From Nemertoderma westbladi (Eukaryota; Animalia; Xenacoelomorpha): a DNA stretch of 50,231 bases. Positions 1-50,231 of this stretch are shown piece by piece. The notes below the pieces were generated by a model that was not told the origin of the DNA, searched no databases, and worked only from the letters and a program-made list of their open reading frames with translations. The DNA is taken from positions 1 to 50,231 of the forward strand of contig JAUCBJ010000892.1 in NCBI GenBank assembly GCA_032718475.1, read 5' to 3'. Every line of letters starts with the position of its first letter. Positions within the stretch are counted from its first letter, which is position 1. The position numbers were made by a program, and so were the translations under genes.

Positions 1-26
1 ATAAGTAGGAAACAAATAAGACTCAC

Positions 27-219
27 AATGATAGCGAAAAGCCCCTCTTTTATCTGACGTTCAAAGAAAATGTAAATAACCATAGCAACGAGAGTGTAGA
101 GGAAAGAGAAGACGGCGATGGTGACAAAGAACTGACTACTGGGGGCGAAGTTCCCTGTGAGACATTGATCCCCGTCGATGGAGCAGGTAGGGATCTCCTG
201 GAAACAGGATTCCTTTAAC
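27..219 (-). CDS. SYP: Synaptophysin-family exon (KLKESCFQEIPTCSIDGDQCLTGNFAPSSQFFVTIAVFSFLYTLVAMVIYIFFERQ...); gene continues beyond position 1
   Basis: 193-nt exon, phase 2 in and phase 0 out, consistent with the previous exon; SSQFFVTIAVFSFLY matches physin SAEFFVTVAVFAFLY. Confidence 0.93.
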
Positions 220-583
220 CTACAAAGAGACAGAAACATCAGTACCAGAACCAATAGTATAGGGAATAAATCGGTCTAGAAACGATCTCCTTATGAATTC
301 CATGTGTTGCAAGCGTGAGACCGGGATACTTAATCGAACAACTAAATATAACATTTTGTAGTTTTAGTTTAAGAGTCCGAATGGGCTCCATGGCCTAAGA
401 CCTTTACCGACCTCATTCTGGTTCCCACGTAACCGAACCGGTTAACTGATATAAGGAAATAAGATGAAATTAATGATGATTGAAACAGACCGCATTACTA
501 AAAAAAATTCTTTTTATTCCAATTTAGGATTTTGAAATAATACGCAAATTTGCGAGATATAACATAAAACATTGAAGACTTAC

Positions 584-5142: not shown

Positions 5143-5147
5143 CTATT

Positions 5148-5231
5148 TGTTATATGTGAATAATAATCAGTTTGATCGAGTTATTATATTACAGTTTAAC
5201 CGTCATCCAGGTACTGTCTACAGTATTAACA
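5148..5231 (-). repeat. 3' LTR (84 bp)
   Basis: TGTTATATGTGAAT...CAGTATTAACA, identical to 10287-10370. Confidence 0.97.
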
Positions 5232-9827: not shown

Positions 9828-10274
9828 ATTCTGATTACAGGATTGCCGTTAATCGTAGTATGTAACCAGAAACACCTTGTCTGCAGTCACCGGTACGGTA
9901 GGCCTAGCACCTAGGCCTATACAATCAGACGGTACGGATCAACTGGCACTGTCGTTTCGTAGGAATTATCAGTGAGGTTGACAGGTTAAAATGTACCGGT
10001 ACGGTACCGTAGGCTACCGTACAGAAGTTTCAGAATGCCAGAAATCCTTGCGAAAAATTGATTCTCACAATACCGATAGGCCTACCGGTAAATAATTAAG
10101 AAAGCGTCATCACGCCAGATCCGCCATCACGGAATTGAGGTTAAACGTTAAACGTCGAACTGGAGCGCCATCACGCCTGCGCCATCACGCAGAATTCAAA
10201 TGTACCGTCAGACCGTAAAAACTTGCGCCGTCACGCCTGCGCCATCACGCATTTAAACCGTAATAAAGTGTAAG

Positions 10275-10285: not shown

Positions 10286-10286
10286 T

Positions 10287-10370
10287 TGTTATATGTGAAT
10301 AATAATCAGTTTGATCGAGTTATTATATTACAGTTTAACCGTCATCCAGGTACTGTCTACAGTATTAACA
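10287..10370 (-). repeat. 5' LTR (84 bp)
   Basis: Identical to 5148-5231; followed by TSD CTATT. Confidence 0.97.
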
Positions 10371-12865: not shown

Positions 12866-13816
12866 TAAATATTGAAATGTAAGATAGGTTTAAAGAATTG
12901 CCTATAAAATTTTTATACTTTTGTATTGGACCCTAAATTTTTGAATTCAAGCTCAGATTTAATTTCTCTTTCGAATTATATATTGCACTAAAGTACATGT
13001 CTGGCAGTTTTGTCTGGCCAGGGGGGGGGGGGGCAATCATTATGGAACACCCGGTACAAAGTTAAAACGGCCCAACCAACAACCGAAAACATTAAAAAGG
13101 TTCAGAAAGCTAAGGAAGATCTTAAATTGGCCTATAATACCAGCCAGGAGAAGGGTAGGTGAAAAACGCGGATCCGGATTCCAAAATTAGCAAAAAAAAG
13201 GGAAAGGAGCAGGTTACAGTGGTACGTTATTTTAACCAAACCAATAAACTAAAGTCAATAGAACATGTTATAGTTTTATTTTTGGGAGTTATAAAAATGT
13301 AAAAAAAATCGACTTCCGTAGGGACAATGTTAAATGTAGAATCCGGATCCGGATTATATTGAAATTTTATATATGACTGAATGGCAAAATTTTTGCTCAG
13401 TCCCAAACGCGACGGTCGTCGATAAAAAACAGTCTATCTCTAAAAGAACATGACATGCAGTTTTTATTCAACGTTGCAAATAAAAAGTTATCCTTTGCCT
13501 CACTTTTGGGTTCATTCTCGTCTATGGTGATGTTTATAAACGCCACGAACACCACTTCATGGGGACCTTACCAACCAACAAACCACGTGCTGTGTGTGGC
13601 ACTCTTTTTATACATGCCTACGGTGGCTGAATTATGCAGTATTGTACAGTATTGTATGCAGTAATGTACAGTATTACTTTCAGATATTTATTGGTCGACC
13701 ATAAATTATAATTTTTGGACCAATCATTGAAGAATGATGATTACAGGGAAATTTAACATCTATCAAAAATCATCAATTATCATTTTAGAATATACGTAGC
13801 AAAATATACACTAGAA

Positions 13817-14108
13817 CACTCCCCTTTAGGCTGAGATAACTCCCTTTAGGCTGAGATGACTCCCCTTAGGCTGAGATGACACCCCTAATTGAGTTATAAT
13901 TCATATCCGTACCTGTGTTATTTTCGTATATTGCAAAAATCAAACTGTAACTTATTGAGATATCGTTTATTGTTTTGGTTAGAAAAGCCCGCCATTGTAA
14001 CCTGTTCCTTTCCGTTAATTAAGAAATCTAGGGAGAAAACGGGGGAGTGTACTCAGCCTAGGCTGAGAAGACCAGAGAGTCATATTTGGTGGGGAGTTAT
14101 CTCAGCCT
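13817..14108. mobile_element. Small MITE-like element with about 20-bp tandem subterminal repeats
   Basis: ACTCCC(C)TTTAGGCTGAGAT x3 on the left, inverted GGGGAGT..CTCAGCCT copies on the right. Confidence 0.45.
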
Positions 14109-14962
14109 GTTGCTGTGACACCGGCACATTGTTTCACAGCGGCGCGGTGTCCTAGGCGAATCTGCCCCCCCGCGTGGAATGCCCTCCTCCCTATAGACTT
14201 ACAGTATAGTAATATTGTAGTAGGCCTAGCAAACCGTACAGCACTTTAACTTGGATTTATTTGTTTATTTTTTGGTTAGGGTTGTTAGTTGGTCGGAAGT
14301 GACTACTAGTTGGCCAGGCCCAAACCCTAATTAAAAATGTCGTGTAACCCTAACTCTAAGTCATGAGGCTATAAATATAAGAAATTCAGGGGAATGTTGG
14401 ACCTTGCCATAATGACCGAAATTCCACAAAATTAAATGAATTTCCACAAAGTGCCACAGCAAAGGCCACATCAAGGGGACACAATGAAATATTTACCATT
14501 TAGCAAGTATTTAGCATAACAAATTAAAAAAAAACTATATTTACAATATTTATTCACCCATCCCCCCACCCCATATCTTTCTTACCTATTAAAAATTTAA
14601 TTCAAAATTTGTTTTCCATTTCAATAAAACTACAAACTACCGTAAATATTTAGTTTGTCTGGGCCCGCACTACAGTTAGTCATGTACTGAGTCCTGCCTG
14701 ATGCTCACTTCAACCAATTCGCATCATTATTGAATTTCAAATTTCCCGCCCTAACAGCCTTTTACCCTGTTCCATACTTGTGCTGTAGTTGTTGGCTGTC
14801 CCATGTAGACCAGTACTGCAGTAGACGACCCTCCTACCCTACTGTGTCCTACACTACTACACACTAGTCATCTAGTACACACAGCCTACACCAGTGCACA
14901 CAGTCGATAACTCAGTAACTGTATAACTGCTGAACTGTACTGATTTGTAACTGATTAACAGA

Positions 14963-16789
14963 ATGGACACCGACAGTTCTTTGTGCACAATGCTCTACGA
15001 AAAATTTGAAACTGCTTTACGGCTATCTGAAGATACATTGCATGAAGATAGTGGGGATACAAATATTTTTGAATCGAAATACCAAGCGATAAACTTATTC
15101 AAACAATTAAAAGAAGACATAAATGAAATATGCGACTTCTCCAGTGTAAAGAAAATTATCTTATCTGCCGCCGTTGAATATTACATAGGAGTTCTACGAG
15201 TTGAAACTGAGGAAATATCTGAAGGAATAACTTCGTTACAGAAGTGCATCTCTCTACTCGAGAAATGCAGCGCGTCTGAATCTGAAGAGCTCGCTAAAGA
15301 TATAACATCTCTCTCGATAAAGACCCACAATGAACTCGGAATGGTGCGAACCTCATTGTCACAGAGGCGTAAATCGCTGAACGCATTTCTCCTCAGTAAG
15401 GCATTGCACGTCGATTACAAGAAGCGATTCGACGCCCCGCCCAGGTTAGTGCCTGATCTCTTCCGACCGGAGACACGCCAGTCGACGATAGAGGCGAGAT
15501 ACACGAATCTCGAGTCCACCTACACGCACACGCTTTTCTACATCGCGCAGGCGTACAAACATATGGGAAATGCGGCTATGTCGGCTACCTACTGCCACGC
15601 CACTATCCGCAGACAGCTGGACAGCGGCAGTTACGATCCCGTGGAATGGAGCATCAACTGCGCGACGCTGTCGCAGTTCTACGTGGAGGCGGCGGGGAAG
15701 GCGAGGCATTGTCTGGCTGCGGCCTCGGTTGTGTTCGCTACAGCCACCCCACCCGAAAGCGAGGAGGAGGAAGAGAGTGAGCGTTACGAACGCTCACGAG
15801 CCGATATCAGTTGGTGTTGGGTAAAATACTGCCTTAATCTGCTGCAGAGATCCAAAGACACCGCGGATAACGTGGTGAACAACGCAGAAGATTTGGTGAG
15901 CACCTCGGATAGTGTTGTATCCGACGATGAGGACGAAGAGATTGATAACGAAGACAGTAGCGACGTTGCGGCCTTGGCGAAGGAGACATTCAGAGGACTG
16001 GAACTCACCCAGTACGAGGAGGCAGTTGGCGATGTTCTAGTGGCGGACGTCGATGCCGCTAGAGAAGTATTCCGCTTTGCCGCCAAACAGATAGAGGAAG
16101 TTAAGCGTTACTACGTGCTCGACGGTTTCGCAGCCGACTTTCTCGACATCATTCGGGACCACAGCAAACTCTACCAACTCCTCGTCTACTTCGAGGTGGA
16201 CCTCAGTCGACGCTGCAAACTCCACAAACGGCGCATTGGACTCATCAGCGACGTCCTCAACCAACTCAACGCTAAGTTCTTCCTCGACGATTGCCGACAA
16301 CTATCCTACGAGTTGGCTGAGACTTACAATGAGATGATAAGTCTAAAGTGCGAGATTGCTTCCACACAGAACGAACCCTCTCACAATGAAGCCTCAATCA
16401 GCTGTTCATCTAACAGCGAATCATCCACGCCGGTACCCACACTCCACCAGACCAATAAGATCAACCAACTCGCCACCAAGGGCATCAAGTGCTTCTCACA
16501 GTTCATCAACTTCCTCAAGGATAACTCAGGGAAACTTCCAAGCAAGTTCGACGCATTCTACGAACGACCAGCCATGGTCGCTTACCTGTGTATGGGTCGA
16601 CTTTACTCAAAAATAAACACACATGATATATCCGAGAGGCTGGGAAACCTACAGCACAGCGTGGAATGCTACAAGGCAGTGGTCGAGTACTGCTCCAAGC
16701 ACCAGTCAGCCAAATCGAGTTGCGCTCAGGAGTTCGAGATTTGTAGCGAAATGGTTGATCTATTGCCCTTGACAATGGACCGCATATAA
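14963..16789 (+). CDS. KIFBP: KIF-binding protein (KBP/KIAA1279 family), single exon, 608 aa
   Basis: YTHTLFYIAQAYKH..SATYCHATIRRQL..DPVEWSINCATLSQFY, RRCKLHKRRI, RQLSYELAETYNEM and C-terminal EICSEMVDLLP match KBP; AATAAA at 16896-16901. Confidence 0.95.
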   Translation: MDTDSSLCTMLYEKFETALRLSEDTLHEDSGDTNIFESKYQAINLFKQLKEDINEICDFSSVKKIILSAAVEYYIGVLRVETEEISEGITSLQKCISLLEKCSASESEELAKDITSLSIKTHNELGMVRTSLSQRRKSLNAFLLSKALHVDYKKRFDAPPRLVPDLFRPETRQSTIEARYTNLESTYTHTLFYIAQAYKHMGNAAMSATYCHATIRRQLDSGSYDPVEWSINCATLSQFYVEAAGKARHCLAAASVVFATATPPESEEEEESERYERSRADISWCWVKYCLNLLQRSKDTADNVVNNAEDLVSTSDSVVSDDEDEEIDNEDSSDVAALAKETFRGLELTQYEEAVGDVLVADVDAAREVFRFAAKQIEEVKRYYVLDGFAADFLDIIRDHSKLYQLLVYFEVDLSRRCKLHKRRIGLISDVLNQLNAKFFLDDCRQLSYELAETYNEMISLKCEIASTQNEPSHNEASISCSSNSESSTPVPTLHQTNKINQLATKGIKCFSQFINFLKDNSGKLPSKFDAFYERPAMVAYLCMGRLYSKINTHDISERLGNLQHSVECYKAVVEYCSKHQSAKSSCAQEFEICSEMVDLLPLTMDRI

Positions 16790-18012
16790 TGCAATGCCCA
16801 CACAATCACAGACACAACTCATCTATAGCCTCTTTTTACTTTTAAACTAAATTCATTTTATATGCCATAGTTATTTTACCAATTTGTTTTCTTTTAATAA
16901 AAATAACCTTTCCAAAAATATCGACTTCTTGATTCTTTGTAGAAATATTGGAATGTGGGGAGGGGGGGGGGGGGGGGCTTCCGGGTTGTTTAGCTGAACT
17001 CGCTATATGCAGGCCTCCCAGAGTTTCCTTTTTTGTAGAACGTTTCCTTTTTTTACCTCTTTTTTTTTAGAACCTTTCCTTTTTTCCCTCCATTTTCACA
17101 CATTTTTTTCCTTTTTTTTTGGTTCAGAAGATCAGCTTCAGCTTTCTGTTGATATTGACAAGGTTATAAAAGAGATTGACGGGCATATGCAGATGTTTAT
17201 TTTGAATATGTTTATTTTGATAAATATCACGAGATAAGTTACCATAAAAATGTAGCAGTGGAGGTGACTTTACTATATTTATTTTCTGAGGCGCGGACAT
17301 ATTATAATTTATATAAAGCCCGCCTTGGTGAATTAACAGTGTTGAATTTCAATTTAGGGAAAGGAACAGGCTGCAGTGGCAGTCTATTCTAACCAAAACA
17401 ATAATAAGAAAGCCCATTCATTACATGGTTACAGTTTCATTTTTGCTCATAATCAGCTGGTATTTGCATCCGTTTTCCACTGAAGATGGTTGAATTTTGA
17501 TTGCGTCTAAAAAGCATTTTTGTTATTTATATTTTATATAAATGTAGCCACGACCGGAAATCCGTACCAAAGTTTTTATATCACTTTCAAAATAAAGTTA
17601 TATTTACAATCGTTTTATAAACCTCTATCAATAACCATCAATCGGCCGAGCTCAACCCACTCTGATAACAAGGCAAAAAAAGTGAAAATTTCATAATTGT
17701 TTTTAAACTGTTCTTATTTCATTGATATGTTGATTTATAATAATTATATTGCCATTGCCGTGGTCGTTCTCTTTCTTTGTTTCTACTTTTTAAATTATTT
17801 GGATCTCTTCCTGTCATTTAATACGATGTTTCTTAATAGGCTTTTAGGTTAATGAAATATAATTTTTACTATCCTTTTTTAAAGATAATATCAATTCAGT
17901 TTTTCCCTTTTTTTGAACTGCATCCTATCCCTTTTTTCCTTTTTAGAAAATATAAATTCCTTTTTTCCTTTTTTTCATCGATTTTTTTGGCCCTAGAGGG
18001 CTGTATGATGAG

Positions 18013-18238
18013 GGGTGAGTACAAAACAAAGACCAAAGACACAAGACCTGTACAAAAAACATGTGTTACTTTCGTTTATTGTTTTGGTTCCCCCAACACG
18101 CCTCTGTAACCTACTCCCTTACTAACCTGCTCCTTTAAATGGCATTGGGACCCAGCGCACTTTGGGACCTAACGCGACTTTACCTCTTTGTTTTGTACAG
18201 AGGGTATTGGGTCACTGGTCTTTGTTTTGTACTCACTC
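18013..18238. mobile_element. Shorter copy of the Mutator-like MITE family found at 37595-37936
   Basis: Same termini GGGTGAGTACAAAACAAAGACC / GGTCTTTGTTTTGTACTCAC and shared internal sequence; no TSD visible. Confidence 0.8.
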
Positions 18239-18940: not shown

Positions 18941-20841
18941 CTACTACTACTACTACTAGGATCGGCATGCTGCATTGCAGCTGCATTTTTAAGAATGCTG
19001 TGCCGGCTTATCGACAAAATTGCACCGCCACAACTCCCTATCACCCATGACATTTGCTAGATCATCCGCATCTTCAAGGCCAGTGTCCTTAAAGATGCGT
19101 CTCAAGAAAGTCATGGGCTGTCCAACATGCTTATTCACTCCATGAGGCTGCCAAAGTACAAGATTATGCACTGGCTGGTCCTCACGGTGAAAGCAATGTC
19201 CTGCAAAGCGGAGGCGATTTTGTTCTAGTGTCAAGCTTGGGGGAACCAATGAGACACCTCCAATGTTATATAGTGTCTGGTTGGAGATGTGTGCATTGAA
19301 CTTGACACAATGAACCCGGCGTAGCATTCTTGTGAATGTGCCATCCAGAGATTTGGTGTCCTCAGCAGTTAGAGCCCAGCATGGACTCCCATAGAGGAGT
19401 ACTGGAACTACTGCTGCTCTAAATAACCGGACCTTAAGTTTCCGATTAATTCTCGGTGACTTCCAAATCCTGGAAAGCCTATTCAAGGCTGCCCATGCCT
19501 TTCCCTTACGTATTCGAAGGTCCTCACCTGACTTCCGGATCCATGATCCCAGGTTATAGAAGTCATCCACATGCTCAAGCATACCATCTTTTGAGCTTAT
19601 GCTCATCCGATCAGAGACTTGCTGAGGACTTTCGAAGTTAACTGTCAAAATTTTGGTCTTTCTGGAGTTAATAAAAAGACCAACACTAGAAGCAGCATTT
19701 TCTAAATGAGCTGAGGAGCCGTTGGGCTCCCTCTAGTGATTCTGAGAGTACTCCTAAGTCAACAGCAAAGTCTAGATCAGTTAGGTACTTGGCAGGATTT
19801 CCTCGACTTCTGGAGCCAGTAGGTGGAGTTATCATCACCCCATTATCATTATGATGATCTAAGGACATGCGTAGAACATAGTCAACAACAATTATGAACA
19901 AGAATGGTGCAAGTGTGTCTCCCTGGAGGACGCCCCATAACACTTCAAATGGTTCTGTGTCACCGTCAACAGAGATAAAATCCTGAAGATGGACGGAATT
20001 TCGGTTAACACTATTGCTATAGACCCAGGGCAATGTAGGTGATTGATGCAGACTTGCATTAAAGTCTCCCAGGAATGTTAAGAATGCATGCTGATCCACT
20101 CCATCAGTACCTGCTTGTAGATTCTGGTAGAAATTTTCCACCTCCACTACAGGGGCAACACTAGTTGGAGAGTAGCACACAATCAGAACCACCTTAGGAA
20201 ACTTCTTAGCCAGTCTTCCAGAACATGAGAAGTGGCAACGGATGATGCGGTTAGAGATTTGGTCATTTTGTCCAATGCTGCATGTGCAGTTGGATTCATC
20301 AATAGACCAATTCCACCATTGCCACTATCATCTGCTGAAGCGAGGGCGAGTCGCCAACCGCCCCCCATGTCCTTAATCAGAACCTCATCAGTCTGTCCAG
20401 TCTGCATTCGGTGCTCTTGAACACCCACTGCACTAAGAGAAAGCTTATCTGCCAAGGCAGTCAGCTCACCTTGTCGCATTGGGGACCCGAGTGTTAGGGT
20501 GTTTACTGAGGCTAGTCTAGTGACTTGCCTCAGATTCACCAATGGCATTGTTGGTCGGGGTGTGACATGAGAGTAGCCTCCAACTCCAGAATCCCTCTCC
20601 CCCTCACAATCTGGCCTCCCCGGTGACCCAGGATTTGGTCCAGAAAGGTCATCAGGAAAGGGACTCAAAGAATTGTTTGCCGCTCTCTCTCCAGTAGGGT
20701 GTGAGACAGGCAGCCGGTCAGGCGATAACTGATGCCTGTGAGGCCAATTGTGTCCAGTCATTCCACTGGCCTCTAGTGGCTGGATTACTAATGTAATCCA
20801 TAGTGGGGGTTGGGGGGTGCTTTTTTGCCGAGCGTTTTTTG
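18941..20841 (-). mobile_element. RTE-clade LINE copy with both ends but a large internal deletion and frameshifts
   Basis: 13-bp TSD ACAGCGTTAACTA (18928-18940, 20842-20854), (TAG)n tail, APE motifs (GVQEHR, GGIG, YSPT, GDFNA) fused directly to RT GVLQGDTLAPFLF; lies in the intron between the two FANCJ exons. Confidence 0.9.
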
Positions 20842-31296: not shown

Positions 31297-33151
31297 TTAC
31301 TACTAGTAGGATCGGCATGCTGCATTGCAGCTGCATTTTTAAGAATGCCGTGCCGGCTTGTCGACAAAATTGCGCCGCCACAACTCCCTATCAGTATCAC
31401 CCATGACATTTGCTAGATCATCCGCATCTTCAAGGCCAGTGTCCTTTAAGATGCGTCTCAAGAAAGTCATGGGCTGTCCACCATGCTTATTCACTCCATG
31501 GGGCTGCCAAAGCACAAGATTATGCACTGGCTGGTCCTCACGGCGAAAGCAATGTCCTGCAAAGCGGAGGCGACTTTGTTCTAGTGTCAAGCTTGGGGGA
31601 ACCAATGAGACACACACCTCCAATTTTATATAGTGTCTGGTTGGAGCTGTGTGTGCATTGTACTTGACACAATGAACCCGGCGTAGCATTCTTGTGGATG
31701 TGCCATCCAGAGATTTGGTGTCCTTAGCAGTTAGAGCCCAGCATGGACTCCCATAGAGGATTACTGGAACTACTGCTGCTCTAAATAATCGGACCTTAAG
31801 TTTCCGATTAATTCTCTGTGACTTCCAAATCCTGGAAAGCCTACTTAAGGCTGCCCATGCCTTTCCCTTACGTATTCGAAGGTCCTCACCTGACTTCGGG
31901 ATCCATGATCCAAAATCCCAGGTAACAGAAGTCACCCACATGCTCAAGCATACCATCCTTTGAGCTTATGCTCATCCGGTCAGAAACTTGCTGAGGACTT
32001 TCAAAGTTAACTGTCAAAATTTTGGTCTTTTTGGAGTTAATAAAAAGACCAACACTAGAAGCAGCCTGTTCTAATGAGCTGAGGAGCCGTTGGGCTCCAT
32101 CAAGGGATTCTGAGAGTATCTCATTCTGGGATTTGGGTTGCCGTATATTTTCGCTCTGTTTTCTGTGTTCGCCTTTAGATGTCGCGTTTACAAGTAGAAG
32201 CGTTCTAGGTGGTGGGGCTGATTGTTTAATTTTATTTGCGACACATTTAGAATGCAATAACATGCATTTAAGAATAAAAAATTCTAAACTGAAAATTGTA
32301 TAGGTTTAAAATCTCTGAAATGACTATATCTCCCTTTCATAGAGTAGTACTAGAGGAGGGCCTAGCGGCCCGTAACAGCGTAAAGCAAGGGTTATCCAAA
32401 ACTGATTGCAATTTAATGGCATGTTATCAATCAATTAATTGCAATTGGAAATTATATCAATCATTTTAATTGCAATTAAAGTCTTGAACCAATCAATTAA
32501 TTTACAAAATTTACAAAAAACCAACACTAGAAGCAGCCTGTTCTAATGAGCTGAGGAGCCGTTGGGCTCCATCTAGGGATTCTGAGAGTACTCATAAGCC
32601 ATCAGCAAAGTCTATATCAGGTAGGTACTTGGCAGGATTTCCTCGACTTCTGGAGCCAGTAGGTGGAGTTATCATCACCCCATCATCATTATGATGATCT
32701 AAGGACATACGTAGAACATAGTCAACCACAATTATGAACAAGAATGGCGCAAGTGTGTCTCCTTGGAGGACTCCCCATAAAACTTCAAATGGTTCTGTGT
32801 CACCATCAACAGTAGACACAAATGTTGTCGAACCATCGTATACTGATCTGATTGCTGCAATAATTTCATCAGGAATCCCATATAATGAAATTATGCTGAA
32901 CATACGTGAGCGAGAGACTGAATCAAAGGCCTTGACGAAGTCAACAAAGATAACAACAGCCAGATGCCTGTCTTTCTTTTTTGATAACTCTTCAATGCTA
33001 AGTGCCAAAATGGGCTCCAAGGTCCCACGACCTTTACGGAACCCATTCTGATTTCCACAGAGCAGTCTCTCAATGGCATCCCTGATGCAATTTAATAGAA
33101 TTCTATTTGCAGCAATCGAGATCAATGAGACTTTCATCATGAGACTTGAGA
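31297..33151 (-). mobile_element. 5'-truncated RTE LINE copy (same family as 18941-20841) carrying a foreign insert
   Basis: Near-identical 3' end and TAG tail; TSD ATTT(C/T)ACTTTACTA at 31283-31296 and 33152-33165; RT motifs QNGFRKGR, FVDFVKAFDS, DFAD. Confidence 0.9.
32131..32510 (+). repeat. Copy of the MFS gene 3' end/3' flank (38652-39023) inserted in the RTE
   Basis: Direct alignment by eye; bracketed by a 70-bp duplication of RTE sequence (32049-32118, 32521-32590). Confidence 0.92.
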
Positions 33152-33900: not shown

Positions 33901-36686
33901 GGGTCATTCCACGCCAAATCATCCAGTATTTTCAATTTTGACACTATAGGTCTCAGATTGTTTTGAAACCTGCACCAAATATTAGCGAACATATATATAT
34001 AATGCTACAGGCGTCAACCTGCCAATCACCACATCCTCTGAGGATGAGTCACGGCGGTTCTACCACGCACAACTACCCGTTAGTGGTTAGTAGTAGACCT
34101 AGTGGTGGGGTGAGGGGGGGGGGGGGGGTGTTTAATGGTTAGTAGTAGAAGTATACGTAGATGTAGTGATAGATGGGGGGGGGGGGGGGTTGTTTAACGC
34201 GGTTAGTACTGTAGTAGTAGACGTAGTGCGATAGAGGATGGGGAGGGGGGTATTTAATGGTTAGTAGTAGACATAGTGATAGAGGGTGAGGGGTGGGGGT
34301 TATTAACAGTTAGTAGTATAGGGGGGGGGGGGGGGGGGTTTTGTTTAACTGTTAGTAGTAGAATAGTGATAGGGAGTGGGGGTGTTTGTTAATATGACGC
34401 ATGTTTTCTCTGATCGTAATGGTTGTTATCAGGTTAAATGTGTAACCTCTATCTCATATATTGCTCTCGTCATTATTGGTTTATTTTGTATAAGTCAGTG
34501 GGATAGTTGGTCTGTTGCCTGTAGGGGTTGACAGTATTTGATATTGATGACTCATATTCTGAAGGACTAATAATGCTGCCCGGCTAATCCTAAGGTCGGT
34601 TATGAGTGTTTCATTAATATTGTAGGAATGGGAGCATTGCGTGGTGGTTGGAAGGTCTGTAATTCGAGAGTCACTGGTGTTTGTTTATTATAGTCCATTA
34701 GGCTGGAGTCATAAATCAACAGTTGACATGTTTATTCGTTTTAAAAAATTTCCCATAGATGTTGTTGGTTTGTTCTTGGTGAATATTCAATATAACAGGG
34801 GTATATAAAATTTATCTCCATAATTCTATCTTATAACAGAGGTATAAAATCGCGCTTTATCAATAAGATGATAGCAAATGGGGTATCTTTGGGTTGTTGA
34901 TATCATTATAAATGTAATGAAAAGGCAGTGGTGGTGTGACATTGATTTTTGATGTGGTATAGTGAGATGTATTGGTAATCTGTTAATTGGTAGGGGAATA
35001 GTGTTTAGATGGATTGTTTTGTTGGGTATTTAGTAGAGATATTGTGCGTTATCATTATAGGTATAGAACCTTTATTAAATAGTAATAGTATTTATTACTA
35101 ACTAATCCAATTTTATTCTGTTTTTCTGAAGTTGGGATGGTAGTTTGAGCGTTTTAGAGAAAAAAAGTGGAAGATTTAGTTGGAAATTTGTTAGTTGGGT
35201 AGTGCGCTATGCTGTATCTTACCCATAGGTGCCCAGCCCAACACCTACAGGGGGTATTTAAGGAATACCCTACCCTGGGTTAGATGTCTCTAGTGTTGCC
35301 ACTAAAAGTTGCGGAACCCTATACCGCATGGAAATTAAAATCCCTGAAAGTAAAAAATTTGGTAAAATGGGATGAAAGGGCCTGGAAATATGTAAATTAA
35401 TGCAATTGAAATATTTCTGAAAAATATACATGAAAAAGAAGTAAATATCAGCCATATTAATTGCCAATTTGTTCGTTAGTTTATATCATGCTAGATGAAT
35501 TACAATCCCAGTATTTGTCAGATTTGTACAGTACCAATTATACCTTAATTTTTAACATGCATGAGTATGTAAGAGTATGTATTGACACTCGCGAAATGAT
35601 AGGTGAGCATTGCAATTAATTTAGTAAAAGTTTTGAACAATATGTACAGTATTCCATTAAGTGAGATTATGACTGATATTCTCAGTAAATCATGCATTCG
35701 TCTTGCAAGCTTACCGCTTTAGTTGTATGATTCAACTTATCCTGTTTTTTTTTTGTATTGGGTACAATCTTTCAGATCGTAGGTGTGGGTGGGTGTCGCG
35801 GTGTGGGGTAGGGTAGTGGGTTGGTGTATGTTGATTTTATGTTCATTTTCGTCAGAGAGCGAGAGTGGGAGAGGTGATGAGTTGGGGCAGTTCCGCGGCA
35901 ATAATAATACTGCCTCTCAATAAAGAGACCCCCTTTACTGCTATCAGGGACGCGTTGTTCGACAGAGCCCCGTCAGCAAAAACAGCCAGTACCGCTAGTC
36001 GGTGGGGTTGACTTGTTGACGAGAGGCTATTTACAGGCGCATCGGTCAACCATTACTGACCATTAGCGAACATATATCTAGCAAAATGCAAAAAAAATTA
36101 GCTCAAAATGTTTCACGGTTTAAAAGTTACAGCCCTCTAAAAATGGCGAGTCTGCGAATAATGCGATAATTTGAAAATTTGTGTGATCACCCTCATCAAA
36201 TTTTGCATGATTTTACTATCACATGTTGTATATATTCACACCAAAAACCAAGACCGGCAACACTTGGCCACATCACCAAATGAGCATTTGAATTTTGTCA
36301 GTTATCAAACAATCGCAAAAACTCAAATTTTTAAATTTTTTCACCCATGGAGTACTTGGACTTCGTTTTGAGTCGTTATTAATGCCATTTTCGAACTCAG
36401 TACCATCAAATTACCCCAGAAACATCTAATTGGTCTTATAAATCAGACAAAATTGTCTAAATGTTCATATTTGTGGATTTAACACACATCGCGATAAGCG
36501 CAACGATTGCAAGTGTTGACCGCAGAGTCGCCATTTTTAAAGGGATGTAACTTTTGAACCATAAAACATTTTGGGCAATTTTTTTTGCATTTTGCTAGAT
36601 ATATGTTCGCTAATATTTTGTGCAAGTTTCAAAAAAATCTGTGACCTATGGTGTCAGGCCCTGGATGACTTGACGTGGAATGACCC
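33901..36686. mobile_element. MITE (GGG termini, 4-bp TSD GGTT) split by a 2.07-kb insertion
   Basis: TIR GGGTCATTCCACG / CGTGGAATGACCC; left arm stops at 33996 and resumes at 36062. Confidence 0.8.
33997..36061 (-). mobile_element. Unclassified insertion with 16-bp TSD, probably retrotransposed
   Basis: ATTAGCGAACATATAT at 33981-33996 and 36062-36077; (AT)n at the left end; G-run minisatellite 34085-34390; no credible ORF. Confidence 0.6.
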
Positions 36687-36808
36687 GGTTGTGTTTTTGC
36701 TTCTATGTCTCTAGAGGTATCCAATCCAGGTGTCGTGCACCAGTGTAATTGTTTTTCGGATATGTAATACTACTTTCATTATTCTCCATACTCTTTTTTA
36801 ATATTAAT

Positions 36809-36925
36809 GATCTAGCAAATGTCATGGGTAATAGGGAGTTGTGGCGGTGCAATTTTGTTGACCAGCCGGCGCATCATTCTTAAAAATGCAGCTGCAATGC
36901 AGCATGCCGATCCTAGTAGTAGTAG
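36809..36925 (+). mobile_element. 117-bp 3' fragment of the RTE family
   Basis: Reverse complement of the 3' end of the other two copies, ends (TAG)4, ATTAAT on both sides. Confidence 0.85.
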
Positions 36926-37055
36926 ATTAATAATTATAAAGTTAACAATAAAATTTTAATACATTTAAATTTAATATTTTTATTAAATTATAATTTTACT
37001 AGATATATCATATATTAGATATTTATACTAGATATGAGGTAGGTCGGTCTACAAA

Positions 37056-38718
37056 ATGTCAGACGAATCGGCACCCATTGTCTCGTGTGATGAAAATGAA
37101 ATTGCTACAAATCAGAACGGCCATCGAAAGGGCTGGAGACTATACATGTTGGTGGTAATTTTGATGGTAAATCAAATGATACCAGGATGGTGTCATAATC
37201 TATTGGAGTCATTCTTCCCAATTGTTGTAGAAGAACGTGGTTGGTCGAAGACTCTAATTGGTACATTACTAGCAACATTTGCCACCATCAGACTAGTAAT
37301 ATACATTAGTTGTCCTCATTCTATCAACAATTGGGGGACTCGTATATCTTTGGGGATGTTTGGTGTCATCGGGGCAATTTCTCAGTTTGCATTTGGGTTT
37401 GTTGGATGTATACCAATCGGTAATAATGGGTTATATATATTCACATGTTTTTCTCTGCGCATCATTGAAGCAGTTGGGCTCAACATCAGTTTTATGTATT
37501 CATACAGTTTATTGATGGAATTGGTGCCATCGCAAAGAACTTTACTAGCTAATCTAGCAGTAGTTATTGACAACCTTGGATTTATGATTTCACCGGGTGA
37601 GTACAAAAAAAAGACCCAAGACCCAAAGGCCTGTGTAAACTTTCGTTTATTGTTTTGGTTTCCACAACAGGCCTCTGTAACCTGCTCCTTTACAAACCTG
37701 CTCCTTAAAATGGCAATGGGACCTAAAGCTCTATGGGACCTGCTCTTTGGGACCTAACGCGACTTTACTTCTTTGTTTTGTACAGGTACCAAAGAGCGTT
37801 AGGTCCCATTGCCATTTAAAAGAATAGGTTACAAAGGCGTATTGGGGGAACCAAAACAATTAACAAAAGTTAACACATGTTACAAGAATATGCAGGTCTT
37901 ATAAATGGGTCTTTGGTCTTTGTTTTGTACTCATCCTGATTTCACCAGCTTTTGGTTCAACAGTATTTGCTGCATGGGGTTTTAAGTTCCCATTTATAAT
38001 ATCCGGTTTGATGTTTCTTACTGTCACACTTTACTGCTGGAAGGAATCACCGGACTATGTCTACGACAGATGTGAATCAAAAGATGACAGACCAACTTAT
38101 ATTGAAGTTCTGAAGAATCCAGCAATTACACTTATATTTATTTTGAACGCATATTGGAGACTACTTTCAGCATTCACCCTTGCGAATTATTCTGCCTACA
38201 TTTTTCACATCTACAATGTGAACCAGTACAACATTGGTGGTATTTATATGATTACTCCGGGCTTTCAAACTTCCACAGGCCTCATAATGGTGTTGTTTAT
38301 GAAGAAATTTAAATCTATCTTTCCAACTGTATTTGGGGCAATGTTACTAACAGTATCAATGCAATTAATAGGCCCAACAGAACTACTGGGTTTACCACAT
38401 AATCTCGATATCTCTATCTCTGGATGCGCTCTCTTTGGATTTGGTGCTGGATTATACCTAACTCCTGGGCTGGAAACACAAACGCAACTCGCAGTGAAAG
38501 TTTGCGGTTTTCCAGATAATGTAGACACCAGGTCCCTTCTCCAACAAATGCTTCGAATTGCAACGTCTATTGGAACTATCATAGGTCTCATTATTGGTGG
38601 CTTTCTCAACGATATATTTGGAATGGAATTAGTTTCTTCGTTTCTCGGTCTATTTGGGTTGCCGTATATTTTCGCTCTGTTTTCTGTGTTCGCCTTTAGA
38701 TGTCGCGTTTACAAGTAG
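37056..38718 (+). CDS. MFS transporter, SLC18B1-like; exons 37056-37596 and 37949-38718, 436 aa when spliced
   Basis: Two hydrophobic ORFs join in frame across a GT..AG intron (541+770=1311 nt); motifs FFP..E.RG, LRIIEAVG, GFMISPAFG..WGFKFPF, LIGP, GF.DN..T, IGLIIGGFL..FG recall SLC18B1; AATAAA at 38794. Confidence 0.85.
37595..37936. mobile_element. Mutator-like foldback MITE forming an intron (introner-like)
   Basis: TIR GGGTGAGTACAAAA / TTTTGTACTCATCC, long imperfect inverted arms, 10-bp TSD TGATTTCACC (37585-37594, 37937-37946). Confidence 0.9.
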
Positions 38719-38899
38719 AAGCTTTCTAGGTGGTGGGGCTGATTGTTTAATTTTATTTGCAACACATTTAGAATGCAATAACATGCATTTAAGAATAAAA
38801 AATTCTAAACTGAAAATTGTATAGGTTTAAAATCTCTGAAATGACTATATCTCACTTTCATAGAAGTAGTACTAGAGGAGGGCCTAGCGGCCCGTAAAG

Positions 38900-40052
38900 C
38901 AAGGGTTATAAAAAAGTGATTGCAATTTAATGGCATGTTATCAATCAATTAATTGCAATTGGAAATTATATCAATCATTTAATTGCAATTAAAGTCTTGA
39001 ACCAATCAATTAATTTACAAAATCAATTATTCAATTAATTGCCAATTATTTTAAAAAAAGTTGAAGATATAATATTTACATAATTTATTTATTACGACTG
39101 ACTATTCAATATCAGTAACATACGGGTCCTACGAATTACCCCAAAATACCCCAAAATAGTCAAAAATTACCCCAAAAAGGCTAAAAAATTACCCCAAAAT
39201 CAGCCAACAATGTTTATTAACGGCGAGGAAAAGGAACAGGTTACAGTGGCAAGTTTTTTTTAACCAAAACAATAAACGAGAGTGAAGAAAAAATTGTAAA
39301 TTTTTTTGGGGGTAATTCGTCATTTTTTTTGGGTTAATTCGTAATTTTGCCATAATTTGTGGTATAAATTAAATTTCCAAAACAAATGCTCAAAAACAAG
39401 TATTTTGGGGTAATTCTAACTAGCTGACTAGGCTATTTTGGGGTAGTTTTATTATACTATTTTGGGGTGTTTTGGGGTAATCCGTAGGGCCTACCGGTAG
39501 TTACTACCTAGCTTATTTCTGTCAAGTATCTCGCTCAAACTACCGCAGTACCGCTGTACCGGTACAGGTAACAAGATAACTGAAATGAACGGCTGATGCT
39601 GTTGTAGGCAGTCAGTATGTAGGCCTAATGCTGTAAATATGACTGATACTGATAGTTTATTTTACATAGTGTTTGTGTAGTGGTTCTGTGCACTGTATAG
39701 TAAGCAATAGGAATATAGCCTACAGTAAAACGGTAAGTATTACTGATGCTGCAACTCTGCAAGGCTGGGCGCTGGCTAACTTTCTACTGTTGAACTGATA
39801 AAAATAATTGGATAGGCCCAATTGATTGGGCTGCGCAATGGACGCAATACATTGATAATTGCTTCCTGGGCAATCAATTATCCAATTAATTTCGTCTGTC
39901 TCAATGAATTATCCAATTAATTGCGTCCATCCCAATCAATTATCCAAATAGTTTGAAATTACCAATAAATTAATTTGGTCAATTAATTGCAATTAATTGT
40001 TTGCCTATTGGTTTGCTAATTAGTTTGCTAATTGTTTTTTTGATAGCCCTTG
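38900..40052. mobile_element. hAT-like non-autonomous element with a nested inverted-repeat element (about 39124-39492)
   Basis: TIR CAAGGGTTAT / ATAGCCCTTG, 8-bp TSD CCGTAAAG/CCGTGAAG, CAATTAATTG subterminal motifs; nested IR GGTCCTACGAATTACCCCAAAA / TTTTGGGGTAATCCGTAGGGCC. Confidence 0.75.
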
Positions 40053-41836: not shown

Positions 41837-43003
41837 GTAGGGGTGGGCACTTCTCCTATCTGCTACACTAAGATAGGGTTAGGTGCTACTCCTATCTGCT
41901 ACCCGAAGGTAGGGTTAGGTGCTACTCCTATCTGCTACCCGAAGGTAGGGGTGGGCGCTACTCCTATCTGCTACCCGAAGGTAGGGGTGGGCGCTACTCA
42001 TATCTGCTACCCGAAGGTAGGGGAGGGCGCTACTCCTATCTGCTACCCGAAGGTAGGGGTGGGCGCTACTCCTATCTGCTACCCGAAGGTAGGGGTAGGC
42101 GCTACTCCTCTCTGCTACCCGAAGGTAGGGGGGGGGGGGGGGCGCTACTCCTATCTGCTACACTAAGGTAGGGTTAGGTGCTAATCCTATCTGCTACCCG
42201 AAGGTAGGGGTGTGCGCTACTCCCATCTGCTACCCGAAGGTAGTGTTAAGTGCTACAACTCCTATCTGCTACCCGAAGGTAGGGGTGGGCGCTGCTCCTA
42301 TCTGCTACCCGAAGGTAGGGGTGGGCGCTACTCTTATCTGCTACCCGAAGGTAGGGGTGGGCGCTACTCTTATCTGCTACCCGAAGGTAGGGGTGGGTGC
42401 TACTGCTATATGCTACACGAAGGTAGGGTTAGGTGCTACTCCTTTCTGCTACCCGAAGGTAGGGGTGGGCGCTACTCCCATCTGCTACCCGAAGGTAGTG
42501 TTAGGTGCTACTCCTATCTGCTACCCGAAGGTAGGGTTAGGTGCTACAACTCCTATCTGCTACCCAAGGTAGGGGTGGGCGCTACTCCTATCTGCTACCC
42601 GAAGGTAGGGTTAGGTGCTACTCCTATCTGCTACGCAAAGGTATAGGGTTATAGGTGCTACTCGGGTGGGCGCTACTCCTATCTGCTACACTAAGGTAGG
42701 GTTAGGTGCTACTCCTATCTGCTACCCGAAGCTGAGTTAGGTGCTACTCCTATCTGCTACCCGAAGGTAGGGATGGGCGCTACTCCTATCTGCTACCCGA
42801 AGGTAGTGTTAGGTGCTACTCCTATCTGCTACCCGAAGGTAGGGTTAGGTGCTACAACTCCTATCTGCTACCCGAACTTAGGGGTGGGCGCTACTCCTAT
42901 CTGCTACCCGAAGGTAGGATTAGGTGCTACTCCTATCTGCTACACAAAGGTAGGGTTATAGGTGCTACTCCTATCTGCTACCCGAAGGTAGGGTTACGTG
43001 CTA
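41837..43003. repeat. 36-bp minisatellite, about 32 copies
   Basis: Unit GTAGGGGTGGGCGCTACTCCTATCTGCTACCCGAAG with a GGGTTAGGT variant; explains the VGVGATPICYPK ORFs. Confidence 0.95.
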
Positions 43004-43093: not shown

Positions 43094-43765
43094 ATATCAT
43101 AAGAACGCCCTTCATCTGCAGAATCCACATCGGAAAAAAAATTCCGCATCCTGAGATATCAAAATTCAAAGGTTAACTTTGGCAAGTAAATCGATATAAT
43201 TCTACTGATTTTTTTACTCAATTCTAGTTCTACCTAGAATTTCAAAAAAAACATTAGAATTATATCGATTTAAGTCTCAAAATATACAATTTAGAATTTT
43301 GGGGGCGCATGGTGATGCTGCGACGCCAGTGCCATTGTTCCACACAACAAACATAGAGTAAGGATGACAATGTCAGCTTTCAGTGCATACAAAAAGATGG
43401 GCCTGAGGAAGATCTTAGCTCCACATATTTGTTAATCTAGAGGTACAGTTCTTTGAGTAAATGGCCACTGAAGAGGTTGTAGATCAACTGTTTGTTCAAC
43501 CAATCCAAAGGCTGACGAAGTGGTATCACGAAGTCTTTGTAGGATATATTGAAACTGGGTCTGGTGTAACAGAGTTGTTATCCGGGTATTCAATTACTTG
43601 ATTGGAAAGGTGACACATTTCATGCCCCAGAAGTGGGGCATGAAATGATCTGTTTGTTTGTGTTTGCGAAATGATTTGTTTGGTTGTGCTTGTTTGATCT
43701 GTTTGTCCTAATCCAAAGGCTGGCGATGGTGTATCATCAACATTCTTGGTAGGATCTATTGGAAC

Positions 43766-44500
43766 TCAGTCTGGTGTAACAGTTTTGTTGTCTGTGTATC
43801 CAATTCTTTGATTGGAAAGGTGACACATTTCATGCCCCAGAAGTGGTTCATCTGTTTGTCCTAATCCAAAGGCTGGCGATGGTGTATCATCAACATTCTT
43901 GGTAGGATATATTGAAACTGGGTTTGGTGTAACAGAGTTGTTATCCGGGTATTCAATTATTTGATTGGAAATGTGACACATTTCATGCCCCAGAAGTGGT
44001 TCATCTGTTTGTCCTAATCCAAAGGCTGGCGATGGTGTATCATCAACATTTTTGGTAGGATATATTGGAACTGGGTCTGGTGTAACAGAGTTGTTGTCTG
44101 GGTAGCCAATTCTTTGATTGGAAAGGTGACACATTTCATGCCCCAGAAGTGGTTCATCTGTTTGTCCTAATCCAAAGGCTGGCGATGGTGTATCATCAAC
44201 ATTCTTGGTAGGATATATTGAAACTGGGTTTGGTGTAACAGAGTTGTTATCCGGGTATTCAATTATTTGATTGGAAATGTGAAACATTTCATGCCCCAGA
44301 AGTGGTTCATCTGTTTGTCCTAATCCAAAGGCTGGCGATGGTGTATCATCAACATTCTTGGTAGGATATATTGAAACTGGGTCTGGTGTAACAGAGTTGT
44401 TGTCTGGGTATCCAATTCTTTGATTTGAAAGATTCCCAAAGTCGGGTTTAAGAAGTGTTTCATCAGTTTTGATTTCCGGGTTGGGTACTGCTTCAGTCAT
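43766..44500 (-). CDS. Hypothetical protein made of 51-aa (153-bp) tandem repeats; possibly a pseudogene
   Basis: ATG-initiated 244-aa ORF; period 153 (CATGCCCCAG at 43831, 43984, 44137, 44290); the array continues past the stop to about 43490. Confidence 0.45.
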   Translation of the reverse strand: MTEAVPNPEIKTDETLLKPDFGNLSNQRIGYPDNNSVTPDPVSIYPTKNVDDTPSPAFGLGQTDEPLLGHEMFHISNQIIEYPDNNSVTPNPVSIYPTKNVDDTPSPAFGLGQTDEPLLGHEMCHLSNQRIGYPDNNSVTPDPVPIYPTKNVDDTPSPAFGLGQTDEPLLGHEMCHISNQIIEYPDNNSVTPNPVSIYPTKNVDDTPSPAFGLGQTDEPLLGHEMCHLSNQRIGYTDNKTVTPD

Positions 44501-49149: not shown

Positions 49150-49440
49150 CAACATTGTTTTGTTTAGAAAAGCCTGCTGTAATAAAATAATTTCCCTCAA
49201 TTGTTAAAGAGATCGTTTATTGTTTTGGTTAGAAAAACCTGCCTCTTTAAACTGCTAATTTCCCTCAATTGGTAATGGGTGGTTTATTATTGTTTTGGTT
49301 AGAAAAACCCACCTCTGTAAACTACTCCTTTCCCTCAATTAGTAAAGTGATCGTTTATTGTTTTGGTTAGAAAAGCCCGCCACTGTAACCTGCTCTTTTC
49401 CCTGTTGGTAAAGTGATCTGTGATCGTTTTGGTTAGAAAA
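49150..49440 (+). repeat. About 65-70-bp tandem repeat, 4-5 copies
   Basis: Recurring TTATTGTTTTGGTTAGAAAA..CCTCTGTAA..TTTCCCTCAATT. Confidence 0.75.
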
Positions 49441-50231
49441 ATGTCTTATAGCTGTTTACATGCCATCTTGTTGTTATGTTAGTTTACAGAATTGATTTAA
49501 TTCAATTGTATTTTGTAATGTAGTGTATGTATGTATGTAATGTGATTTAATTTATTATAACTTCATTAAAACTGAGTAGGACTGAAAGCCGTTTACTGTA
49601 TGAATCACAGTCTGGCGGGATGTTGTTACAATCAGTACAGTCTGAATGTGTGAATGAAAAAATGGGGTCAAAAGCAGAAAAGAGCAATAAAATTGGTCAT
49701 GGTCATAAGAAAATAACTGCCTATATTATTAACAATAAAATCAGAAAACAGCTGATAAAAATTTTTTTTATGTAACTCAAGGACTACTGAAGTTCAGTAG
49801 TCCAGTAGTCCTTGCTGTAACTTTAGCCACGGTAATTAGCAAATAGCTGATAAATAACCGTCAGTCCAAAGGCGGTATCACTTAGGTACCGGTACACCAG
49901 AACTTACGGTAACGTTCGTTAACCGATAGGCTTACGCCTTTATGTTACCGTACAGAGATACAGCGATAGGCCTAGGTAGATAGGCCTAATATACAAATTT
50001 TAACAGTCTAAGTTTATCCTGCACGGGCACGCTAATGGTACCTGTCAGTCGGTATAGGTAGCCCAGTAGCCGGTGGGGGTGGTCATACACACACGAAAGA
50101 TACCGTCCCGTCGGCCATATCAGATACTACTGTACTAGTAGTTCTGAGTCTGACCCTGTGGCGTGGCCGACACTGTACTACAGTGCTGCAGTACGTACTG
50201 ACCTAGGCCTACTATGTTAGTGTCGGAAGTA

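What the first reader, a model, noticed from the sequence alone, without database searches (positions are those of the whole stretch)
37585..37948. Introner-like event: a Mutator-type MITE that splices itself out of an MFS gene with exact protein restoration
Seen: a 342-bp TIR element plus 10-bp TSD adds 352 nt inside the CDS. The TIR begins GG|GTGAGT (consensus donor at 37597), the opposite TIR supplies a U-rich tract and branch-like TACTCAT/CCTGAT, and the host AG right after the second TSD (37947-37948) is the acceptor. The intron 37597-37948 is exactly 352 nt. Pre-insertion ATT TCA CCA GCT TTT becomes ATT TCA CCG GCT TTT: same ISPAF peptide, one synonymous change. Both halves of the gene remain open. 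Known: introners (TIR transposons that carry one splice site and co-opt the other) are described mostly in aquatic eukaryotes. Inference: this family creates a clean intron whenever the two bases after the TSD are AG; it may be an unreported intron-generating family in this animal lineage.
Basis: partly seen in the sequence, partly recalled or inferred. Interest (0 to 1): 0.9.

Follow-up and report, generated by a model that had tools for sequence, protein, structure and literature searches.

The report
Transposon likely turned into new intron
A small hairpin-shaped jumping DNA element sits in the middle of an otherwise intact transporter gene of an animal, placed so that the cell could likely cut it out of the RNA as a brand-new intron, a known way for introns to be born, but no RNA data were available to show that the cut happens.

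Summary
A 342-bp inverted-repeat element (37595-37936) with a perfect 10-bp target duplication interrupts an SLC18B1-like transporter gene. Removing 37597-37948 (GT..AG, 352 nt) restores the same 436-aa protein. The junctions are in DNA runs (left in two studies), and diverged paralogs are empty here with no older intron, so this is an insertion into an intronless exon. Splicing is not shown: no RNA run was listed. Indirect support: the element has decayed about 5% while both gene halves stayed open (neutral survival 0.001-0.12), and exact removability occurs at only 47 of 1269 sites. Against: a stronger-looking internal acceptor at 37785 gives a truncated protein; donor and branch site pair in a long hairpin; dozens of paralogs make the gene dispensable. 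Best reading (0.55): a single transposon-derived intron. Rivals: dead copy (0.25), SOS-type excision (0.1), mostly mis-spliced allele (0.1). The 'introner family' claim is untested: 1 of 2 copies in the window is exonic, and no genome was held. Mechanism known; new instance.

The parts
37056..37596 (+). 5' part of the SLC18B1-like MFS transporter reading frame (predicted exon 1; its last two bases GG come from the element)
   Evidence: MFS_1 E 3.7e-6; family profile E 7.6e-20
37585..37594 (+). left target-site duplication, 10 bp, stays in the mRNA
37595..37936 (.). non-coding 342-bp MITE, nearly palindromic, no transposase
   Evidence: RNA fold -164.9 kcal/mol, z -11.45, 0 of 100 shuffles as stable
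37595..37625 (+). left terminal inverted repeat, holds the predicted donor GTGAGT at 37597-37602
   Evidence: I7; only GTRAG in 37400-37950; same hexamer as a host FANCJ donor
37753..37785 (+). competing internal acceptor-like site (CTAAC 28 nt upstream, pyrimidine-rich tract, CAG|G); its use would give 185 aa
   Evidence: the AG is predicted base-paired
37906..37936 (+). right terminal inverted repeat: U-rich tract and candidate branch site (A at 37933; another candidate A at 37901)
   Evidence: 51 nt free of AG upstream of 37948
37937..37946 (+). right target-site duplication, removed with the predicted intron
37947..37948 (+). host-derived AG, predicted acceptor
   Evidence: no difference listed at these places among paralog contigs laid there (table 3)
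37962..37963 (+). second in-frame AG; its use would delete 5 codons including a glycine found in 40 of 42 homologs
37949..38718 (+). 3' part of the transporter reading frame (predicted exon 2), open to the stop
   Evidence: MFS_1 E 2.2e-9; SLC18B1 structure 9d7u E 4.6e-6
18013..18238 (.). second, shorter (226 bp) copy of the family, inside an intron of the FANCJ gene, no target duplication left

Best explanation
A non-autonomous, likely Mutator-type DNA transposon inserted into the single coding exon of an SLC18B1-like transporter gene and is likely removed from the RNA by the ordinary spliceosome as a new 352-nt GT-AG intron, which would restore the original protein. Shown: the insertion, its duplication, the empty state of paralogs, the exact geometry, and the open frame on both sides. 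Inferred: U1 binds GG|GTGAGT in the left repeat while the RNA is being made; the inner arms fold back and hide the internal AGs; the right repeat gives the U-rich tract and branch site; the first AG behind it is the host's own, two bases past the duplication, so the element's two leading G bases replace the host's AG. I read this as a rare lucky survivor among a very large number of copies, not as proof of an intron-making family.
For: (1) Geometry exact and protein identical. By chance 47 of 1269 positions of this gene have AG right after a 10-bp target and 25 keep the protein identical; any in-frame first AG occurs at 257 of 1269. (2) Paralogs are empty: of 9 'before' loose-end rows shown (18 of 45 rows shown), 8 reach across the site and all 8 read as coding sequence; the X1 consensus matches the left exon at 23 of 30 letters, counted by eye. 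(3) The copy is not fresh: its two terminal repeats differ from the four-end majority at 3 of 62 letters (counted), the left arm has 11 private changes in 128 three-way columns, and unique contigs run 67-106 nt into it. Neutral survival of the open frame is 0.12-0.04 at 2% decay and 0.005-0.001 at 5%, with indels at 5-10% of substitutions; repeat pairs in this window show 21 gaps per 147 mismatches. (4) The joined protein matches a 42-homolog profile as one domain (positions 13-414 of 451, E 9e-71) with no gap at the site, which lies in the conserved P-x-x-G helix motif. (5) The host uses canonical GT-AG introns, one with the same GTGAGT donor. (6) With the donor held open, the internal AG is predicted paired (0.01 unpaired) and the terminal branch region open (0.77). 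(7) Left-junction depth equals flank depth in two studies (26 vs 28; 20 vs 19), and the 3 + 2 contigs with a loose end at 37937 are all paralogs with 10-17 differences. (8) 2 of 3 same-locus coding variants shown are synonymous (too few to weigh).
Against: The splice junction itself was never observed. The internal site at 37785 looks better than 37948: 16 of 20 pyrimidines vs 14, CTAAC at -28 vs CTCAT at -15, and CAG|G like 2 of 2 host FANCJ acceptors, while the proposed one is CAG|C; all 12 AGs inside the element from 37640 on give 181-205 aa. In the full fold the donor pairs with the branch region (unpaired 0.11 and 0.001), and local folds do not clearly favour the terminal site. The gene has dozens of paralogs (51, 43 and 29 contigs laid on 139 bp), so its loss would cost little. 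Part of the element's divergence may predate this insertion, and the two duplications are still 10 of 10 identical. This copy also differs from nearly all paralogs at two amino acids close behind the site (codons 190, 193). The case was picked because it has the AG, so the 3.7% figure overstates the surprise.
Confidence: 0.55

Rival explanations
1. The insertion killed or silenced one redundant member of a large gene family; the splice geometry is a coincidence and the frame is still open because the insertion is younger than the element's divergence suggests (an aged copy moved again).
For: Dozens of paralogs; perfect 10 of 10 duplication; about 4% of exonic insertions would show this AG by chance; at 1% decay without indels the frame survives in 55% of runs; two amino-acid changes private to this copy near the site.
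Against: Changes in both terminal repeats, one at position 3, and 11 of 128 private changes in the left arm; open frame over 436 codons where LINE pieces in the same window are broken into several frames; present in two studies with no empty allele among the contigs shown.
Confidence: 0.25
2. The element is cut from the mRNA by SOS splicing (spliceosome-independent, triggered by paired inverted repeats) or a hybrid SOS-spliceosome route; a share of products is in frame and keeps the gene alive.
For: The whole element folds into one long hairpin that pairs donor with branch site. PMC12779559 (passages) reports such excision in nematode and human cells, independent of the repeat sequence, with hybrid and GU-AG products near splice sites.
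Against: That paper reports indels at most junctions and rescue only in poorly conserved regions; here the site lies in a conserved helix motif with no gap in the homologs shown. The ends here match GT-AG exactly. AKAP17A, CAAP1 and RTCB could not be looked up in this animal.
Confidence: 0.1
3. The donor is used but mostly with the internal acceptor at 37785 (or the element is often retained), giving truncated products removed by nonsense-mediated decay; only a minor share is spliced exactly, so the allele is a weak, tolerated one.
For: 37785 is the first strong acceptor downstream of the donor and resembles both host acceptors; its tract stays largely unpaired (0.63-0.66) in all folds; the same site is kept in the second copy.
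Against: The AG itself is predicted paired once the inner arm is made (0.08); a weak allele explains the long survival of the open frame less well.
Confidence: 0.1

Closest known systems
Introners of TIR-transposon origin (PMC9860276, passages; PMC12130899, passages, section 6 and family table; review PMC11282704, parts 1-2 of 5)
   Same: Non-autonomous TIR element with target duplication that carries one splice site and co-opts the other, with no change in mRNA length; 'carry 5-prime, co-opt 3-prime' and recruitment from neighbouring exon are described types.
   Different: Those are families of at least 4 similar introns in unrelated genes, mostly RNA-supported, with 3-9 bp duplications in the 2022 survey. 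Here there is one case, no RNA, a 10-bp duplication, and the AG lies outside the duplication. The one family finally classed as Mutator in the 2025 table is in the dinoflagellate Amoebophrya, co-opts the 5' site and has non-canonical 3' ends.
Single intron gains by transposon insertion (PMC3443670, passages: 35 events in rice, Drosophila, Oikopleura, maize; the maize Ds case of Giroux 1994 seen only as a reference, not held)
   Same: One exonic insertion whose ends and flanks give splice sites allowing precise removal; the review notes it is unclear whether this is more than chance.
   Different: The textbook route duplicates AGGT; here the donor comes from the repeat and the acceptor from the exon two bases past a 10-bp duplication.
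Mutator-like elements, MULEs (PMC6446971, passages)
   Same: 8-11 bp target duplication and long terminal inverted repeats; GG..CC ends as noted for the Amoebophrya Mutator family.
   Different: No transposase or autonomous partner found; only one duplication observed.
SOS splicing (PMC12779559, passages)
   Same: Exonic DNA transposon whose inverted repeats pair in the RNA.
   Different: SOS products have varied, mostly non-GU-AG ends and leave indels; the junction predicted here is a single exact GT-AG.

Membership tests
Introner | Transposable element inserted in an exon where relatives have no intron | tested here: met
   TIRs and duplication; paralogs empty and coding across the site. True orthologs not available.
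Introner | Splice sites carried or co-opted so that removal keeps the frame | tested here: met
   436 aa identical; 2 of 15 AGs in 37640-38000 give a near full-length protein
Introner | Spliced out of real transcripts | not testable with these tools
   No RNA holder listed; all five runs laid were contigs guessed as DNA
Introner | At least 4 similar introns in genes of different paralogy groups (criterion in PMC12130899) | not testable with these tools
   No genome held; 2 copies in the window, 1 exonic and 1 inside a FANCJ intron
Mutator-like element (MULE) | 8-11 bp target-site duplication | tested here: inconclusive
   10 bp exact at this copy; best 5 of 8 at the second copy; n = 2
Mutator-like element (MULE) | Long terminal inverted repeats | tested here: met
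   31-nt ends at 90% plus inner arms of 61 and 48 nt at 82-85%
Mutator-like element (MULE) | Autonomous partner with a MULE DDE transposase and the same ends | not testable with these tools
   No transposase family among 122 window frames scanned; collection scans gave 0 hits and 1 chance hit; no genome
MITE | Short, non-coding, TIR-bounded, many copies | tested here: met
   342 bp; summed contig depth 44,000-93,000 against about 27 for unique flanks in X1 (the tool warns this is no copy number, so order of magnitude only)
SOS-spliced transposon | Inverted repeats pair in the mRNA | tested here: met
   predicted only:
SOS-spliced transposon | Varied non-GU-AG junctions that depend on AKAP17A, CAAP1 and RTCB | not testable with these tools
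   no RNA, no genome
SLC18B1-like MFS transporter (host gene) | Full-length match to the family | tested here: met
   MFS_1 in both halves; only PDB hit is SLC18B1; one domain over profile positions 13-414 of 451; best relatives only 21-33% identical

The most novel reading that the evidence does not exclude
This is the visible member of an animal Mutator-type introner family: both ends of the element carry a consensus donor, the opposite end gives tract and branch site, the fold-back hides internal acceptors, and any exon AG in frame just past the 10-bp duplication completes the intron, so a family with on the order of a thousand copies has left several to many new introns in otherwise intronless genes of this animal.
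Probability: 0.18. Interest if true: 0.65.

Novelty: new member of a known kind. Interest (0 to 1): 0.36.

Why it matters
Intron birth from transposons is established, but the 2022 survey found introners in only two animal groups among 835 animal and plant genomes (PMC9860276), and the 2025 table classes one family as Mutator, in a dinoflagellate. A confirmed case here would add an animal example with a long duplication and empty paralogs as built-in controls. Because the element is also an ideal SOS-splicing substrate with a perfect GT-AG frame and a competing internal acceptor, one RT-PCR or long-read experiment would show which pathway handles it, a direct test of how tolerated insertions become true introns. 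As it stands it is one unconfirmed event.

Tried and rejected
No genome held, so no genome-wide copy census. A 352-nt skip was not among the 15 of 119 joints shown. X4 holds the paralogs but only about 250 bp of this gene, and X2 lacks the right-junction contig; the tool says holes prove nothing, so neither is used. Summed depth was not taken as a copy number. An early idea that most family members lack 37786-37906 was dropped: such joints are in all 4 runs and the second copy has that form, but palindromic arms can be laid either way, so which form is typical is unknown. Repeat-end scans: 0 hits in metagenomes, then 1 hit in metagenomes and the same contig in viral contigs, rejected as chance (61% GC, 21-nt match, no second arm). 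Word-based protein searches found nothing for the MFS 3' half or the FANCJ exon. The Atlas gave no answer. No Rfam match in 36500-39600. A literature guess at the lineage led nowhere; the lineage stays undetermined. A pre-existing intron later invaded by the element was rejected: the predicted intron is exactly element plus duplication and paralogs have none. An assembly artefact was rejected. Searches for a printed animal Mutator-derived introner (supplement searches) showed none, and the repeat-end motif is absent from the 14 supplements of PMC12130899 (cells over 400 characters are cut). Subscription journals and the supplements of the other papers were not seen.

Full report
Observation. 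A 10-bp direct repeat (37585-37594, 37937-37946) flanks a 342-bp element with 31-nt terminal inverted repeats. The element starts GG|GTGAGT, the two host bases after the second repeat are AG, and 37597-37948 is 352 nt. Joining 37596 to 37949 gives a 436-aa reading identical to the reconstructed empty site, while the unspliced reading stops in the element. The terminal 14-mer occurs 4 times in the window against 0.53 expected: the two ends of this copy and of a 226-bp copy at 18013-18238.

Host gene and genome. Both halves hit MFS_1; the only solved-structure match is SLC18B1. A profile from the 42 of 122 homologs of 380-560 aa covers the joined protein as one domain with no gap at the site, which lies in the conserved P-x-x-G motif (P in 38 and G in 40 of 42). 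The window is from an animal with no close relative in the databases (intronless KBP gene, best hits 30-40% identical); the lineage was not determined. Two FANCJ exons on the minus strand (21478-21289, 18628-18411) show canonical GT-AG introns, donors GTATGA and GTGAGT, and acceptors ending TTACAG|G. The second copy of the element lies in the intron behind the second exon.

Read evidence. Six runs were listed, none on record as RNA. Contigs bridge the left junction in X1, X3 (one sample) and X2 (another study) at the depth of the unique flanks, and an X1 contig covers the right junction without differences. Laying the right side alone showed 51, 43, 29 and 0 contigs in X1, X2, X4 and X5. Of 9 loose-end rows that lie before the stretch's match (18 of 45 rows shown), 8 reach across the site and continue as coding sequence homologous to the left exon, 23 of 30 letters for the X1 consensus. 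So paralogs are empty and have no intron here. The 3 contigs in X1 and 2 in X2 that break at 37937 all carry 10-17 differences, so none is an empty allele of this locus. No difference is listed at 37947-37948 among laid paralogs, while 2 more distant ones lack the AG, so the AG most likely predates the insertion (inference). The element's summed depth is three orders of magnitude above unique sequence (order of magnitude only).

Is the gene still alive? The element has aged: 3 changes in 62 terminal letters against the majority of four ends (counted), 11 private changes in 128 columns of the left arm, and unique contigs that run 67-106 nt into it (that this means no other copy shares those 31-mers rests on my knowledge of such contigs). 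In a simulation with an assumed mutation spectrum, started from today's sequence, the frame stays open in 12% or 4% of runs at 2% decay and 0.5% or 0.08% at 5% decay, with indels at 5% or 10% of substitutions; without indels the figures are 31% and 5%. Six repeat pairs in the window show 21 gaps per 147 mismatches, 16 of 21 not multiples of three. This favours continued function, which needs removal of the element from the RNA. The caveat is that an aged copy may have moved again, and the duplications are still identical. Exact removability arises at 47 of 1269 positions of this gene (25 with identical protein), but the case was chosen for that feature.

Splice signals. The donor is the only GTRAG in the region and equals a host donor hexamer. 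The acceptor at 37948 has 51 AG-free bases before it and branch candidates 15 and 47 nt upstream. Of 15 AGs in 37640-38000 only 37948 (436 aa) and 37963 (431 aa, losing the conserved glycine) keep a long frame. The main objection is the internal site at 37785, with CTAAC 28 nt upstream, 16 of 20 pyrimidines and CAG|G, which would give 185 aa. The element folds into one hairpin (-164.9 kcal/mol, z -11.45). In that fold the internal AG is paired, but so are the donor and terminal branch site. If the donor is held open, as by early U1 binding, the terminal branch region opens (0.77) and the internal AG stays paired (0.01). Local folds are less clear. The fold therefore allows the model but does not prove it.

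Mechanism and rivals. Most likely (0.55) the spliceosome removes 37597-37948, making this a single transposon-derived intron that survived because it landed before an AG. Rivals are a dead redundant paralog (0.25), SOS-type excision triggered by the hairpin (0.1; PMC12779559, passages) and a weak allele mostly mis-spliced to 37785 (0.1).

Comparison. It works like a 'carry donor, co-opt acceptor' introner (PMC9860276, passages; PMC11282704, parts 1-2 of 5). Membership needs RNA proof and at least 4 introns in unrelated genes (PMC12130899); neither could be tested. Single gains of this kind are on record in plants and animals (PMC3443670, passages). Mutator type fits the 8-11 bp duplication and long repeats (PMC6446971, passages) but rests on one duplication and no transposase. 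In the 2025 family table one family is finally classed as Mutator, in Amoebophrya, with the opposite arrangement; the two tunicate families seen are hAT and Pao; other animal rows were not listed by my search terms. Earlier notes of this scan list three similar cases in other genomes, two of which proved to be unfixed insertions (unchecked); none was found for this genome or element.

Verdict. Real feature, exact geometry, good indirect support for survival of the gene, no direct proof of splicing, and no evidence either way for a family-wide effect. New member of a known kind; interest 0.36.

Noticed in passing
window 37056-38718: The SLC18B1-like family is strongly expanded in this animal: 51, 43 and 29 contigs at 80% or more lay on a 139-bp piece in three runs, yet the best database relatives are only 21-33% identical.
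   Followed up: partly
window 32131-32510: Near-identical copy (365 matches, 6 mismatches, 3 gaps) of the transporter's last 21 codons and 3' flank (38652-39023), set inside a LINE-like fragment between an 82-bp duplication (32043-32124, 32515-32595); either a real capture or an assembly chimera.
   Followed up: no
window 21478-21289 and 18628-18411, minus strand: Two exons of a FANCJ/BRIP1 helicase gene separated by a 2660-nt intron that holds LINE pieces; other exons were not mapped, so the KBP and transporter genes may be nested in its introns.
   Followed up: partly
window 14951-16789, plus strand: Intronless KIF1-binding protein (KBP) frame of 612 codons, best hit 38% identical.
   Followed up: partly
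window 5412-9848, minus strand: Unbroken 1478-codon copia-type frame (integrase, RVT_2) with an identical 85-bp repeat at 5147-5231 and 10286-10370: likely a young LTR element.
   Followed up: no
window 36807-36925 (also 18947-19065, 31298-31421): Short repeat with summed depth above one million in X1 and X3, attached to the ends of LINE-like pieces; no Rfam match.
   Followed up: no
window 13203-13255, 13963-14011, 17360-17412, 39230-39283, 49213-49399: A 50-bp motif of the element's inner arm recurs in other repeats with different ends, in tandem at 49154-49441; possibly a shared binding site of related elements.
   Followed up: no
window 36062-36614 and 39125-39491: Two further inverted-repeat elements flank the transporter gene (I1/I4 and I6).
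   Followed up: no
window 41837-43003 and 43484-44469: Two tandem arrays (units of about 72 and 153 bp by the offsets); their weak Pfam hits come from repeated short stretches and are likely spurious.
   Followed up: no
window 3-275, minus strand: Weak MARVEL-domain hit (E 0.0013, below cut-off), perhaps an exon of a gene running off the window.
   Followed up: no
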